Source: Candidatus Babelota bacterium (GTDB taxonomy: Bacteria > Babelota > Babeliae > Babelales > Vermiphilaceae). Taken from it: DNA of 64,000 nucleotides. This document shows positions 18,001 to 21,000 of this stretch, piece by piece. The stretch's first letter is position 1; each line of letters opens with the position of its first letter. The stretch covers positions 1-64,000 of the forward strand of contig JBMOLF010000010.1 in assembly GCA_049325595.1 (NCBI GenBank), in the 5' to 3' direction. The position numbers were made by a program.

Positions 18001-21000
18001 TTACGCCAAACAAACAAGAAAAAATAAAACAAATTATTAACTTGCGAACCCGTCATATAACGGTGGTGCTTGAAGATATTTTTCAACCTCATAATGCAAG
18101 TGCTATTTTGCGCTCTGTCGAATGCCAAGGGTTGCAAGATTTATATTTAGTTGAGCATCTTAATATGTTTAACCCTACCGGAGGTATTGCTAAGGGTTCT
18201 TCTTACTGGCTTGATATGCATCGCTATAAAAAAATTGAAGAATGCATGAAAGATCTAAAATCAAAAGGGTATCGCATTGTAGCTACTACACCGCATCATA
18301 ATGCTCGTTATATTCATGAACTTCCGTTAGATACTAAATGTGCACTGGTATTTGGCACTGAGCATGTGGGGCTCAGCTCATATGTTCTTAATAACGCTGA
18401 TGAGTTTGTAAAAATTCCTATGTATGGTTTTACTGAAAGTTATAATGTTTCAGTAAGCGTTGCCTTATGTATGTATGAGTTTAACGCTCGTTTGCGTAAT
18501 TCCACAATACCTTGGCAATTGTCTTATGAAGAACAATTAGATGTTCAGCTGCAATGGCTACGCCGATTAATTTCAGGCATAACAAGAATAGAGCAGGAGT
18601 GGCTTGAAAAACATGCTCCTGCTCATACATTATAATATCTGTTCCATTGTTGGCTTTGATTGTTTATGCAATTGCTTAGTATGCTCTTGAAAACCAAGTG
18701 TGATTATCTTATCAATAAATTCCATAGGTTTCATACCAAGCTCTGCGGCTTGATGGAACAAGCATGTTGCCGGTGTCATAGCTGGCAAAGTATTAAATTC
18801 TATAAAAATAACGCGTTCATTGCCAGTTGGGCTTTGCTGTGCTGATTGATAAAAACAATCAATACGCGCATATCCTTTACATCCAACTGCTTTATAAGCA
18901 GCTTCCATTGTTTGTTTTACTAAGTTGAGCGCTGACTCAGGCAACGGTGCAGGGGTTTGATTTTCACCGGCACCGGGTAAGAATTTTTCTTCGATTGAAA
19001 GAATATCTCCTGTAGTTACCGCTTGGCTTGGCGGCAAAGCAAATGGATTGTCGTTGCCAATAACACCTACTGTCAGTTCCATCCCGTTAATGCATTCTTC
19101 TATTAGCGCATAATCTTTTTGTGCAAAAAGAATGTTTAATGCTTGTTCTAACTGCTCAAGCTTGGTAATTTTCTGTACTAATACGGAGCAGCCATCATCA
19201 TGGGGTTTAACAATAAGTGGCAATGGTAGTTGCTGTATTTTTACCAGTGCGCTTGCTTGATTGGCCTCCCATTCATTTTTTGGTAGCAACATTCCCTGTG
19301 GTATATCAAAGCCTTGTGATTGTAAAAACCTATTAGTTTTATATTTGTCCATACACAATGAACTGGCCACTACACCAGAACCATTGTAGGGTAATCCAAG
19401 CATTTCCAATGCACCTTGTATAACACCATTTTCACCTTGCCCGCCATGTAAGCCTATAAACACAAAATCAGCAATAGTAGGCAGACAAGACCATGGCACA
19501 TGCATCGTTTCATCAAGAAAGGTTTCTATTTCATGAGTAGAAGTTTTTACTAATAATTGCTGTGGTAAATGATACAACTTCATATCTTTATTTACAAAAA
19601 GAGGTATGGTCTCATACTTGTGCGGAGCTAATTTATACGTAATATTGCGCCCCGATTCTAATGAAATTTCTTTTTCATTCGATTGACCGCCCATTAAAAC
19701 AGCAACTCTTTTTTTAGTAACATGCATGCGTTCCATTTCTTGTTGTTCAAAGCGTAATACTTTTTCAAGCATGCCATAGGCATGTAATTCACTTTCAATA
19801 AGATAATTAATTAATTGAGAATGGCTCATATTGTGGTGAGCTGCTTGCACAAATAAAAAGCTTGATGGCGCCATACCTGATAATGAATTTGGATCGATGA
19901 TAACAACCGTGCCATCTTCAGTTACAAAACCATCAATACGCGCCATCGTTTGAAAATTAAGCTCTTGCATTACCTTAATGCATGTTTGCTTAATTTTTTC
20001 ACGCACCTGTTCTGAACAGCGTGCTGGGGTATACTCTGTTGCTTTTCCCGGCATATATTTTTGTGCGTAGTCAAAATACTCAAGATTTTTATCAGCAACA
20101 ATTTCGGTAGGTTCTAAAGCAAAAACGGTATTGGTTTTATAGTCAGTTAAAATGATGCAAGAAAATTCCATGCCTTCAATTTTTTCTTCAATAAGAACCG
20201 CTTGATCATATGTCGGGTTTATTGCACATGCTTTTTGAATGGCTTCAAGAAGATCATTATTATTTTTTACAATAGAAACGCCATAGCTTGAGCCCTCATG
20301 GTACGGTTTTACCACAAGAGGGAAGGTAAGATTCAGTGCTTGTAATTTGTGATCAATAGTACTTATGTCAAGCTGCGTAATTTCTTCAACATTAAGCACC
20401 AGGCCTTTTGGAGTTGTAATTTGCTTTGCATTGAGTAATTTTTTTTGCATGGTTTTATCCATGCTCAAAGCACTACCTAATAATTTAGACCCAAGATATG
20501 GAATATTGAACAATTCAAGCATTCCCTGTAATGTGCCATCTTCAGCGTAGCTGCCATGCATTGCTATATACGCAAAATCAATGTGAGTATTAAGTTCATC
20601 CCAGGCGATACATTGAGCTTCGTTTTTTAAACGATGGGCAAAATCGCTAATTTTACCGCGATGCAAAAAATGTTGCGGTAAAATGTATAGTTTGCCTTGT
20701 TCAGTTTGAAAAATAGGAACAATCGCATAACGATGAGGATCAAGATGATCGCATACGGTTCTACCAGAATTAAATGAAACTTCACGCTCTAAGGATTTGC
20801 CACCCATGAGCACTCCAACGCGCAGTTTTGCCATGATGCCCGGTTCCTTTATGTCATAAATAATTTTTTTGTTGATTTTTATCTTAGGGTAACGTGTTAT
20901 TTTTAGATGGTAAATCTTTGAGATATAATTTTCGCAATTCTTTTATATCATGTTAAAACTATATAGAACTTTAATAAAAAAATACCATCTCATGATAAGG

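What a model noticed while it worked through the whole genome (the two positions that open the first line are those of the whole stretch)
18630..20834. Tandem Ddl-Ddl fusion with one Tyr-type and one Phe-type active site
g00427 (C10:18630-20834, -, 734 aa) is two complete D-alanine--D-alanine ligase modules fused head to tail (aa 1-368, 369-734). They differ at the omega-loop residue that decides dipeptide versus depsipeptide synthesis (E. coli DdlB Tyr216): the N half has Lys-Tyr (YAQKYMPG), the C half Lys-Phe (IEEKFLPG), the state of the DdlB Y216F mutant and of D-Ala-D-lactate ligases of intrinsically vancomycin-resistant lactic acid bacteria. Fusion and Y/F split are conserved through the order, so the parasite probably makes two kinds of D-Ala-D-X termini or uses a covalent asymmetric Ddl dimer. 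Two diverged alanine racemases (g00329/g00330, 39% identical) lie in tandem at C9:16821-19116.
Evidence so far: pfam.tsv: Dala_Dala_lig_N 5-116 and 376-486, Dala_Dala_lig_C 167-347 and 504-712; halves align end to end. Search of 41 high-quality Babelales genomes: 37 match at E<=1e-30, 29 as one open frame over query ~1-720 at 53-59% identity, 2 with the halves as adjacent genes. In 11 genomes of 11 families (own + L082-L091) the N-half motif has K-Y 11/11 and the C-half motif K-F 11/11. phmmer vs PDB: the C half aligns 'eekflpg' to 'eakflsd' of 1IOW (DdlB Y216F) and to 'dtkyid' of DdlA 3Q1K; 34 Ddl/VanA/D-Ala-D-Lac ligase structures at E<=1e-20. No paper on a tandem Ddl fusion found.
(Added by a program. 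Inside this text positions count along the whole contig: contig position 1 is position 1 of the stretch shown here. "Call 12" and the like, gene names such as g00115 and contig names such as C1 are that model's own, and its searches are not shown. The text may have been shortened before it was handed on; [...] marks where a part breaks off. The agent that wrote the report below was given it as the finding of a first reader that could run no searches.)

Follow-up and report, generated by a model that had tools for sequence, protein, structure and literature searches.

The report
Two-module D-alanine ligase, unequal active sites
This gene really does join two complete D-alanine-D-alanine ligases in one protein, but it is an ordinary member of an old two-module ligase family found in many bacterial phyla and reported in plants, and nobody has tested what its altered second active site does.

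Summary
Observation confirmed. Window 18630-20834 (-) is one 734-aa frame holding two complete Ddl modules that are 33% identical. The first has Lys-Tyr and the second Lys-Phe at the DdlB Lys215-Tyr216 position.

The fusion is neither a trait of this parasite nor limited to its order.
- Two-module Ddls with the same per-module signatures occur in Bacteroidota, Patescibacteria, Chlamydiia MAGs, Holosporaceae, Bdellovibrionota, Clostridia and Treponema.
- Plant DDL is described in print as a fusion of two putative DDL enzymes.
- The gene is the only Ddl in this genome and in 5 of 5 other carriers checked. In other carriers it lies beside, or is fused to, MurF and alanine racemase.

Module 1 and module 2 differ consistently at four active-site positions: S/C, Y/F, D/E and S/T at DdlB 150, 216, 270 and 281. 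All other catalytic residues are kept in both modules.

No D-lactate source was found in this genome.

Best reading: this is the housekeeping Ddl, built as a covalent asymmetric pair with both modules active. The product of module 2 is untested. This scan has reported the same family on other DNA at least seven times.

The parts
18630..20834 (-). Whole gene: two-module D-alanine--D-alanine ligase, 734 aa plus stop
   Evidence: ORF and translation; Pfam 2x PF01820 + 2x PF07478; it holds the only two Ddl matches in the 1.29-Mb genome, the third hit being a weak ATP-grasp match on another contig
19794..20834 (-). Module 1 (aa 1-347): Ddl module with the canonical Glu16-Ser182-Tyr260 triad, but Asp314 at DdlB Glu270 and Phe326 at Leu282
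   Evidence: Alignment to DdlB; residue frequencies in 120 homologues and 122 distant two-module proteins; TIGR01205 247.3 bits against a cut-off of 245.65
19719..19793 (-). Linker (aa 348-372) between the modules; less conserved
   Evidence: Mean identity to P0001 in 120 homologues is 0.39, against 0.61 for module 1 and 0.67 for module 2
18690..19718 (-). Module 2 (aa 373-715): Ddl module with all ATP/Mg/carboxylate-binding residues kept but a changed triad (Glu387-Cys549-Phe618), plus Thr690 and Cys691 at DdlB Ser281 and Leu282
   Evidence: TIGR01205 228.7 bits, below the cut-off when scored alone
20055..20060 (-). Codons K259-Y260 (DdlB Lys215-Tyr216) of module 1
18981..18986 (-). Codons K617-F618 (DdlB Lys215-Tyr216) of module 2
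19188..19190 (-). Codon Cys549 (DdlB Ser150) of module 2
   Evidence: Cys in 120 of 120 close homologues and 117 of 122 distant ones
18762..18767 (-). Codons Thr690-Cys691 (DdlB Ser281-Leu282) of module 2
19893..19895 (-). Codon Asp314 (DdlB Glu270) of module 1
   Evidence: Asp in 120 of 120 and 119 of 122
20835..21008 (.). 174-bp divergent intergenic region upstream of the gene. Promoter-like matches are no more frequent than in shuffles.
   Evidence: 10 promoter-like sites against 10.1 expected

Best explanation
This is the organism's housekeeping D-alanine--D-alanine ligase, in a two-module form. Two diverged Ddl paralogues are joined head to tail by a ~25-residue linker. I infer that they pack as a covalent version of the usual Ddl dimer.

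Shown: both modules keep every residue class needed for ATP-grasp catalysis, and both are under strong constraint. The gene is the only Ddl in the genome. The family is genetically tied to MurF and alanine racemase.

Inferred: both modules are active ligases that activate D-Ala as the acyl phosphate and hand a D-Ala-D-X product to MurF. Module 1 is a normal dipeptide-forming site. Module 2 lacks the two hydroxyls of the Glu-Ser-Tyr triad (it has Cys and Phe). It is probably a differently tuned site, for example in pH dependence, in affinity for the second substrate or in tolerance of nucleophiles, but its physiological output is still mainly D-Ala-D-Ala. The enzyme is an ordinary member of a cross-phylum family, not an adaptation of this parasite.
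For: - Architecture and catalytic residues are intact in both modules. In 120 homologues the positions matching DdlB E15, E68, K97, K144, K215, R255 and D257 are 120/120 in both modules. H63 and N272 are 119/120 in module 1 and 120/120 in module 2.
- Both modules are equally constrained: 0.61 and 0.67 mean identity, against 0.39 for the linker.
- It is the only Ddl in this genome and in 5 of 5 carriers of other classes, among them two cultured Hymenobacter strains.
- Dependentiae genomes either have the two-module form or no Ddl at all. The 4 genomes without a match, plus G110 whose match there was weak (2.6e-14), gave 0 of 5 matches to TIGR01205. Four family-f7 genomes carry a different two-module class.
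- Links to the D-Ala branch: Ddl-Ddl-MurF and Ddl-Ddl-MurF-Alr fusions exist. A MurF-Alr fusion lies directly downstream in a Ruminococcus and a Treponema locus, and MurF lies downstream in a Bdellovibrionales locus.
- This genome has one MurF, three other Mur ligases, two Alr and three PBP transpeptidase domains.
- In an unrooted quick tree, the 27 module-1, 27 module-2 and 11 single-module sequences each fall on one side of a branch (SH-aLRT 93, 100, 90), and the same three classes are mirrored in both modules. This fits one ancient pairing.
- Moss with a two-module DDL accumulates the Ala-Ala pentapeptide precursor, vancomycin affects its plastids, and its ddl knockout has a plastid-division defect (PMC9434261 passages; PMC9954125 passages).
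Against: The differences between the modules are not drift. In an alignment of 27+27 modules from three classes, only four columns are at least 90% conserved in both modules yet differ between them. All four are active-site positions: DdlB S150 (S/C), Y216 (Y/F), E270 (D/E) and S281 (S/T). All 10 canonical single-module Ddls in that alignment (VanA and a divergent Streptomyces plasmid protein set aside) have S, Y, E, S there. Such long-held differences suggest different chemistry in the two sites.

A Phe at 216 with a non-hydroxyl residue at 150 is the state reported for the Leuconostoc depsipeptide ligase LmDdl2, which has Phe and Ala. DdlB mutated at Tyr216 and Ser150 to these residues gains weak D-Ala-D-Lac activity (PMC7691350 passage; PMC5996685 passages).

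No enzyme of this family has been assayed, as far as my searches show. The dimer-like packing is an inference, because neither structure tool accepted a job. I could not test by sequence that plant DDL carries the same signatures.
Confidence: 0.55

Rival explanations
1. Module 2 is a depsipeptide ligase that makes D-Ala-D-lactate or another D-2-hydroxy acid ester. The cell would then build two kinds of peptidoglycan precursor termini.
For: Phe618 and Cys549 replace the Tyr and Ser whose hydroxyls mark dipeptide-only Ddls. LmDdl2 has Phe and Ala at these positions, and DdlB mutated at Tyr216 and Ser150 to these residues gains weak D-Ala-D-Lac activity (PMC7691350 passage). Phe against Tyr predicts vancomycin resistance in lactobacilli (PMC5996685). 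The Arg, Thr (for Ser281) and backbone positions that hold the second substrate's carboxylate are kept. This genome has two VanX-like M15 proteins. In one relative, G054, a VanH-like dehydrogenase lies about 600 bp from such a protein.
Against: No 2-hydroxyacid dehydrogenase was found in this genome: the only PF02826 hit is a Gnd-like protein next to Zwf. No GloB was found. Only 11 of 61 sampled genomes of the phylum have such a dehydrogenase, while module 2 is invariant. Module 2 scores far below the D-Ala-D-Lac ligase model cut-offs, 141 bits against 550. LmDdl2 (1EHI) is the weakest of its 34 PDB matches. The VanX-like proteins carry N-terminal hydrophobic leaders, are unlinked to ddl, and are present in only 23 of 61 genomes. 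Moss precursors end in Ala-Ala. The family is the sole Ddl of free-living Bacteroidota.
Confidence: 0.12
2. Module 2 joins D-Ala to a different amino acid, such as D-Ser, Gly or another D-amino acid. It could equally be a relaxed-specificity site that gives a second dipeptide for MurF or for another use.
For: The residue at DdlB Leu282, whose side chain lies by the second substrate (role recalled), is Cys or Val in module 2 and Phe in module 1. It is Leu, Met or Ile in the 10 canonical single-module Ddls. The four invariant differences sit in the active site. This genome has two diverged racemases.
Against: The D-Ser ligase VanG has Arg at the Leu282-aligned position and keeps Tyr at the Tyr216-aligned position (alignment to 4FU0). 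Module 2 has neither. Scores against the D-Ala-D-Ser models are far below cut-off, 162 bits against 520. The second racemase is not conserved with the fusion. Moss data show Ala-Ala.
Confidence: 0.13
3. Only one module is catalytic. The other is a structural or regulatory partner, a pseudo-enzyme kept because Ddl works as a dimer.
For: Each module has departures from the canonical site: Asp for Glu270 in module 1, and the lost triad hydroxyls in module 2. Arabidopsis T-DNA lines with an insertion in the first half still transcribe the second half and show no phenotype. The authors take this to mean that one DDL unit may suffice (PMC9954125 passage).
Against: Every ATP-, Mg- and substrate-binding position is kept in both modules over about 30-100% identity. 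A non-catalytic partner would not be expected to keep them. All changes are near-isosteric (S/C, Y/F, E/D, S/T) rather than disabling. Y216F DdlB is reported to remain an active ligase (recalled; only its gain of depsipeptide activity was seen in passages).
Confidence: 0.1

Closest known systems
Plant DDL (Arabidopsis At-DDL, written At3g08840 in PMC3493653; Physcomitrium/Physcomitrella PpDDL)
   Same: It is described as a fusion gene of two putative DDL enzymes (PMC9954125 passage). It is listed as acquired from 'Chlamydiae/CFB bacteria' (PMC3493653 table) and as closest to the Fibrobacteres-Chlorobi-Bacteroidetes group (PMC9434261 passage). These are the lineages in which I find bacterial two-module Ddls. 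It is needed for plastid peptidoglycan in moss.
   Different: It is eukaryotic and nuclear-encoded. I could not obtain a plant sequence, so whether its modules carry the S/Y and C/F signatures is untested here. I found no passage reporting a separate assay of either module in the plant papers I searched (Hirano 2016 was not held).
Single-module Ddl (E. coli DdlB and DdlA, S. aureus Ddl)
   Same: Each module has the same Pfam domains, the same length and the same catalytic residues. Each module is 33-34% identical to DdlB.
   Different: Here two modules sit in one chain. Module 1 has Asp at Glu270 and Phe at Leu282. Module 2 has Cys, Phe, Thr and Cys at Ser150, Tyr216, Ser281 and Leu282. In an unrooted tree the module-1, module-2 and single-module sequences form three separate groups.
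LmDdl2-type D-Ala-D-lactate ligases of lactic acid bacteria
   Same: Both have Phe at the Tyr216 position and a non-hydroxyl residue at the Ser150 position. LmDdl2 has Phe and Ala according to PMC7691350.
   Different: The residue is Cys, not Ala. Module 2 is always paired with a Tyr-type module. No D-lactate source was found in this genome. There is no special sequence closeness: 1EHI is the weakest PDB match.
VanA/VanB D-Ala-(R)-lactate ligases
   Same: Same fold family; about 28% identity to module 2.
   Different: Far below the model cut-offs. No vanH-vanA-vanX operon is present. VanA groups with DdlA-type single-module enzymes in the tree.
MurC-Ddl fusion of Chlamydiaceae (NCBIfam NF011171)
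   Same: It is another Ddl fusion in obligate intracellular bacteria. Some source annotations of the present family borrow the MurC name.
   Different: The partner there is MurC, not a second Ddl. NF011171 scores 241 bits against a cut-off of 1015.

Membership tests
D-alanine--D-alanine ligase (Pfam PF01820 + PF07478; TIGR01205) | N-terminal and C-terminal Ddl domains | tested here: met
   Both domains are found twice: aa 5-116 and 167-347, with second stretches in the C half
D-alanine--D-alanine ligase (Pfam PF01820 + PF07478; TIGR01205) | Score over the curated TIGR01205 cut-off (245.65 bits) | tested here: met
   Whole protein 471.4 bits and module 1 alone 247.3 bits. Module 2 alone scores 228.7 bits, below the cut-off
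D-alanine--D-alanine ligase (Pfam PF01820 + PF07478; TIGR01205) | ATP-grasp catalytic set (DdlB K97, K144, E180, K215, R255, D257, E270, N272; roles recalled) | tested here: met
   Present in both modules, with Asp for Glu270 in module 1
D-alanine--D-alanine ligase (Pfam PF01820 + PF07478; TIGR01205) | Glu15-Ser150-Tyr216 hydrogen-bond triad of dipeptide-only ligases | tested here: inconclusive
   Met in module 1 (E16, S182, Y260). Not met in module 2 (E387, C549, F618)
D-alanine--D-alanine ligase (Pfam PF01820 + PF07478; TIGR01205) | Formation of D-Ala-D-Ala from D-Ala and ATP | not testable with these tools
   This needs an enzyme assay. The only indirect support is that it is the sole Ddl in a genome with MurF, Alr and PBPs
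Two-module (tandem) Ddl family, bacterial and plant DDL | Two complete Ddl modules in one chain, or in adjacent genes, in the order module 1 then module 2 | tested here: met
   In distant members the first module scores higher on the module-1 HMM and the second on the module-2 HMM
Two-module (tandem) Ddl family, bacterial and plant DDL | Module-specific residues: module 1 has S150/Y216/D270/S281; module 2 has C150/F216/E270/T281 | tested here: met
   Own protein. In 122 distant two-module proteins: Y 121, D 119, F 119, C 117, T 115. These are the only four discriminating columns
Two-module (tandem) Ddl family, bacterial and plant DDL | Each module groups with the same module of other classes in a tree | tested here: met
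   Quick IQ-TREE on 65 rows: module 2 support 100, module 1 support 93, single-module 90. The careful search did not finish and the tree is unrooted
Two-module (tandem) Ddl family, bacterial and plant DDL | Homology of the bacterial family to plant DDL shown by sequence | not tested
   No plant sequence was available to me. The link rests on passages in PMC9954125, PMC9434261 and PMC3493653
VanA-type D-Ala-(R)-lactate ligase (NCBIfam NF000206, NF012217) | Score over the model cut-off | tested here: not met
   Module 2 scores 141 bits against 550 and 111 against 775. Module 1 scores 158.6 against 550
VanA-type D-Ala-(R)-lactate ligase (NCBIfam NF000206, NF012217) | Companion VanH dehydrogenase and cytoplasmic VanX in an operon | tested here: not met
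   No 2-hydroxyacid dehydrogenase was found in the genome. The VanX-like proteins are unlinked and carry leader sequences. The neighbours of the gene are a SpoU-like methyltransferase-like ORF and two small unrelated ORFs (their names are my reading of the translations and were not scanned)
LmDdl2-type depsipeptide ligase of lactic acid bacteria | Phe at the Tyr216 position | tested here: met
   F618 in module 2. The rule is stated in PMC5996685
LmDdl2-type depsipeptide ligase of lactic acid bacteria | Endogenous D-lactate supply | tested here: not met
   Searches with PF02826 and TIGR03413 found none in a genome that is 95% complete. Uptake from the host is not excluded
[quoted passage not shown] | Arg at the DdlB Leu282-aligned position (seen in VanG 4FU0) | tested here: not met
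   VanG has 'shsry' where module 2 has 'patcl'. Model scores are 162 bits against 520

The most novel reading that the evidence does not exclude
The two sites make different products. Across thousands of bacteria, and in plant plastids, the second module (Cys/Phe, with no triad hydroxyls) would synthesise a D-Ala-D-X compound other than D-Ala-D-Ala, such as an ester or a dipeptide with another residue. A fraction of peptidoglycan precursors in all carriers of this family would then end differently from the textbook pentapeptide, or the second product would serve a purpose outside MurF. The four invariant, near-isosteric active-site differences would be the specificity code.
Probability: 0.2. 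Interest if true: 0.8.

Novelty: new member of a known kind. Interest (0 to 1): 0.4.

Why it matters
For this genome the result is ordinary. The gene is the cell-wall D-Ala-D-Ala ligase in the form that its whole phylum uses, and it gives no evidence of vancomycin-type reprogramming.

The family-level question is real and cheap to test. A very widespread enzyme form is the sole Ddl of many Bacteroidota, Patescibacteria and intracellular bacteria, and is reported in plants. It has kept two active sites that differ at only four positions, all near-isosteric. I found no report of an assay of either site.

The answer would bear on three things:
- how D-cycloserine and glycopeptide sensitivity should be predicted from sequence, since the simple 'Phe means D-lactate' rule would mislabel every member of this family;
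- the debate on plant plastid peptidoglycan;
- why a homodimeric enzyme would evolve into a fixed heterodimer.

Tried and rejected
The dimer-like packing of the modules is therefore untested.
- Two racemases matching two modules. Rejected: 7 of 61 sampled genomes have two Alr and 18 of 61 have none, while the fusion is near-universal. Other carriers have 0 or 1.
- A VanX link. M15 dipeptidases are present in only 23 of 61 genomes. The VanH-like/VanX-like adjacency occurs in 1 of the 6 genomes that have both, by my reading, so I treat it as chance.
- A suspected intein or insertion in the G116 copy. It is a run of N in the record and cannot be interpreted.
- Searching for the nearest single-module relatives of module 2. 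The search returned only fragments and split forms of the same family.
- My recollection that D-Ser ligases carry Phe at the Tyr216 position. The 4FU0 alignment shows Tyr there, so I dropped the argument.
- Promoter and terminator scan: no more sites than in shuffles.
- Literature. Searches found no paper describing a bacterial two-module Ddl. Searches show that two Dependentiae genome papers mention the mur pathway but not this fusion. Hirano et al. 2016 is not held. PMC12004154 had none of the residue terms I sought.
- Cluster names for ten long representatives, looked up to find plant members: no plant names appeared.
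Full report
**What is there.**
Window 18630-20834 (minus strand) is a single 734-codon frame. An AGGA-type ribosome-binding stretch lies shortly before the ATG. 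Pfam finds both Ddl domains twice. The halves align end to end at 33% identity, and each is 33-34% identical to E. coli DdlB. Each half matches 34-35 distinct PDB Ddl/VanA sequences at E<=1e-20. The gene is the only Ddl in the 1.29-Mb, 95%-complete genome.

**Active sites.**
I mapped the sites against DdlB, using the HMMER alignments to 1IOV/1IOW and MAFFT, with codons checked. The roles of the residues are recalled from the DdlB literature.
- Both modules keep the positions that match E15, H63, E68, K97, K144, E180, K215, R255, D257 and N272.
- Module 1 has the canonical triad E16-S182-Y260, but Asp314 at Glu270 and Phe326 at Leu282.
- Module 2 has E387-C549-F618, plus Thr690 and Cys691 at Ser281 and Leu282.

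In 120 fused homologues of 59-100% identity (of 1417 hits; only the best 120 are listed) these residues are essentially fixed:
- Y260, F618, S182, C549, D314, E679 and T690: 120/120.
- S325: 119/120.
- F326: 116/120.
- C691: 112/120, the rest Val.

Module 2 is, if anything, the better conserved: 0.67 mean identity against 0.61 for module 1 and 0.39 for the linker.

**Distribution in the phylum.**
Of 151 sampled genomes, all of one order, 147 have a match.
- By my count of the listed rows, 126 genomes show one uninterrupted match over nearly the whole query.
- Four have the halves in adjacent frames.
- One genome (G142) has two copies.
- The four genomes without a match, plus one with a weak match, have no Ddl at all by TIGR01205 (0 of 5).
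- Four genomes of family f7 carry a two-module gene of another sequence class, 31-35% identical with 812-826-aa frames.

In this phylum the choice is therefore a two-module Ddl or none.

**Beyond the phylum.**
A full HMMER scan of 1.84 billion cluster representatives gave 17,961 hits at E<=0.001. The best 150 include many other two-module proteins. They fall into two further classes.
- Class B: about 860-930 aa, 39-44% identical, with insertions.
- Class C: about 780-850 aa, 32-37% identical.

Fusions with other domains also occur: Ddl-Ddl-PASTA (1244 aa), Ddl-Ddl-MurF (1262 aa) and Ddl-Ddl-MurF-Alr (1638 aa).

Genome records place the classes as follows.
- Class C is in Patescibacteria (Peregrini-, Gracili- and Saccharibacteria, Paceibacterota), Chlamydiia MAGs, Holosporaceae, Coxiellaceae, Bdellovibrionota, Micavibrio, Oscillospiraceae/Ruminococcus, Candidatus Improbicoccus, Treponema and Opitutales (59 loci).
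- Class B is in Bacteroidota, including cultured Hymenobacter strains (245 loci, 80 kept).
- About 31 of 61 sampled genomes of the class around one Hymenobacter carrier have the full two-module form. The rest show only weak single-module matches or none with this query.
- In five carriers of classes B and C the two-module gene holds the only full-length Ddl matches.

**Same modules everywhere.**
HMMs built from the two halves of the close family score the first module of distant proteins higher on the module-1 model, and the second module higher on the module-2 model.

Of the 156 further proteins then in hand, I could split 122 long ones into modules. In these 122 the residue counts are:
- Module 1: Y at 216 in 121, D at 270 in 119, S at 281 in 117, F at 282 in 106.
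- Module 2: F at 216 in 119, C at 150 in 117 (S in 4), T at 281 in 115, V or C at 282 in 108.
- One 1224-aa protein (P0246) is degenerate in both modules.
- Ten class-B proteins show odd residues at the K144/S150 positions of module 1 in the hmmalign output. The eight class-B proteins in the MAFFT sample all read K-S-S there, and one of them (P0136) reads differently in hmmalign. I therefore take the odd residues as alignment noise around insertions.

All 10 canonical single-module Ddls in that alignment have S150, Y216, E270, S281 and L, M or I at 282. They are E. coli DdlA and DdlB, S. aureus, Paenibacillus and six Bacteroidia. VanA and a divergent Streptomyces plasmid protein were set aside.

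In the joint alignment of 27+27 modules, only four columns are at least 90% conserved in both modules yet differ between them: DdlB 150 (S/C), 216 (Y/F), 270 (D/E) and 281 (S/T). All four are active-site positions and all four changes are near-isosteric.

A quick IQ-TREE of 65 rows places the module-2 sequences (SH-aLRT 100), the module-1 sequences (93) and the single-module sequences (90) each on one side of a branch. The three classes are mirrored in both modules. The careful search did not finish in time, and the tree is unrooted. This fits one old pairing that has since diverged together and moved between phyla.

**What it does.**
The genetic company is the D-Ala branch of precursor synthesis.
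- MurF and Alr are fused to it in some proteins.
- A MurF-Alr fusion lies directly downstream in a Ruminococcus and a Treponema locus.
- MurF, followed by an M15 dipeptidase, lies downstream in a Bdellovibrionales locus.
- A PASTA protein lies downstream in three Bacteroidota loci.

This genome has one MurF over cut-off, three other Mur ligases, two Alr and three PBP transpeptidase domains.

Following a lead from earlier notes of this scan, I checked the plant literature.
[quoted passage not shown] It also reports that T-DNA lines hit in the first half still express the second half (passages).
- PMC3493653 lists the gene as acquired from Chlamydiae/CFB bacteria (table).
- I could not obtain a plant sequence, so the link to the bacterial family is by description and donor lineage, not by my own alignment.

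**The Phe question.**
The rule that Phe against Tyr at this position sets depsipeptide against dipeptide synthesis is stated for lactic acid bacteria in PMC5996685 (abstract and passages). PMC7691350 adds three points: Ser150 and Tyr216 are conserved in dipeptide-only ligases, LmDdl2 has Ala and Phe there, and DdlB mutated to those residues gains weak D-Ala-D-Lac activity (passage). Module 2 (Cys, Phe) therefore resembles the depsipeptide state at both positions.

Several results weigh against it.
- The only PF02826 hit in this genome is a Gnd-like protein beside Zwf.
- No GloB was found.
- Only 11 of 61 sampled genomes of the phylum have a 2-hydroxyacid dehydrogenase.
- Both modules score far below all VanA, D-Lac and D-Ser model cut-offs.
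- LmDdl2 (1EHI) is the weakest of module 2's 34 PDB matches.
- VanG keeps Tyr at the aligned position and has Arg where module 2 has Cys.
- The family is the sole Ddl of free-living Bacteroidota.
- Moss makes the Ala-Ala precursor.

The two VanX-like proteins of this genome carry hydrophobic N-terminal leaders and are unlinked to ddl. Such proteins occur in 23 of 61 genomes. The two racemases are real but not conserved with the fusion.

**Verdict.**
The gene is the housekeeping Ddl in the two-module form. It is most likely a covalent asymmetric pair with two working sites that feeds D-Ala-D-Ala to MurF (confidence 0.55). A distinct product from module 2 (ester 0.12, other dipeptide 0.13) or a non-catalytic partner module (0.10) is not excluded.

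I found no report that either site has been assayed. The searches found no paper on the bacterial form. The plant papers I saw only in passages. A review says that DDL 'was functionally characterized' in moss and Arabidopsis by Hirano et al. 2016, which is not held here.

The packing of the modules could not be modelled, because the structure tools did not accept jobs.

This scan has reported the same family on other DNA at least seven times. My independent results agree with those notes.

Noticed in passing
L158:1411-2184 (G000:C17) and L157:1090-2034 (G000:C7): This genome encodes two VanX/DdpX-like M15 D-Ala-D-Ala dipeptidases (218 and 62 bits to the VanX model, below its cut-off of 320). 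Both have hydrophobic N-terminal leaders. One has a Cys/Pro-rich N-terminal half. They look periplasmic rather than cytoplasmic.
   Followed up: partly
L179:1399-2442 and L179:28-804 (G054:C7): In one relative, a 2-hydroxyacid dehydrogenase whose best NCBIfam match is the VanH model (231 bits, cut-off 540) lies about 600 bp from a VanX-like dipeptidase. This adjacency is seen in 1 of the 6 sampled genomes that have both genes.
   Followed up: partly
Phylum sample: 18 of 61 sampled genomes of the phylum have no alanine racemase match at E<=1e-20, although almost all have the two-module Ddl. Their source of D-Ala is unexplained.
   Followed up: no
P0225, P0269, P0137; L042:8411-10939; L053:8388-10943: Large fusions of the D-Ala branch exist elsewhere: Ddl-Ddl-MurF (1262 aa), Ddl-Ddl-MurF-Alr (1638 aa), Ddl-Ddl-PASTA (1244 aa), and MurF-Alr (843 and 852 aa) directly downstream of two-module ddl genes.
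   Followed up: partly
L155:9123-9905, L153:8790-9569, L107:8692-9453: In Bacteroidota a ~255-aa PASTA-domain protein lies directly downstream of the two-module ddl. This matches the fused PASTA forms. PASTA domains next to a cytoplasmic ligase are unexpected.
   Followed up: no
L155:6007-6939 and 7061-8758 (Hymenobacter qilianensis NZ_CP060784.1): The two-module ddl of this cultured strain reads in three pieces, with a TGA between frames. This could be a frameshift, a sequencing error or a broken gene. It is the only Ddl match in that genome.
   Followed up: no
L175:~1070-3590 (G116:C35): The copy in G116 is interrupted, right after the module-1 'DYEQKYM' motif, by about 2.5 kb that reads N. 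The motif is repeated on the far side. Nothing can be said about what lies there.
   Followed up: partly
G142:C11:27122-29293 and G142:C6:8555-10732: One genome of the phylum has two full-length copies of the two-module gene (56-57% identical to the query).
   Followed up: no
window 16369-17133 and 17196-17864 (minus strand): Two adjacent ORFs (254 and 222 aa) downstream of the ddl region share a motif of the form '...D.NNNNLLQ(I/V)(L/V)L...L(I/T)..LVP.T...'. They look like diverged paralogues with hydrophobic N-termini. Their function is unknown.
   Followed up: no
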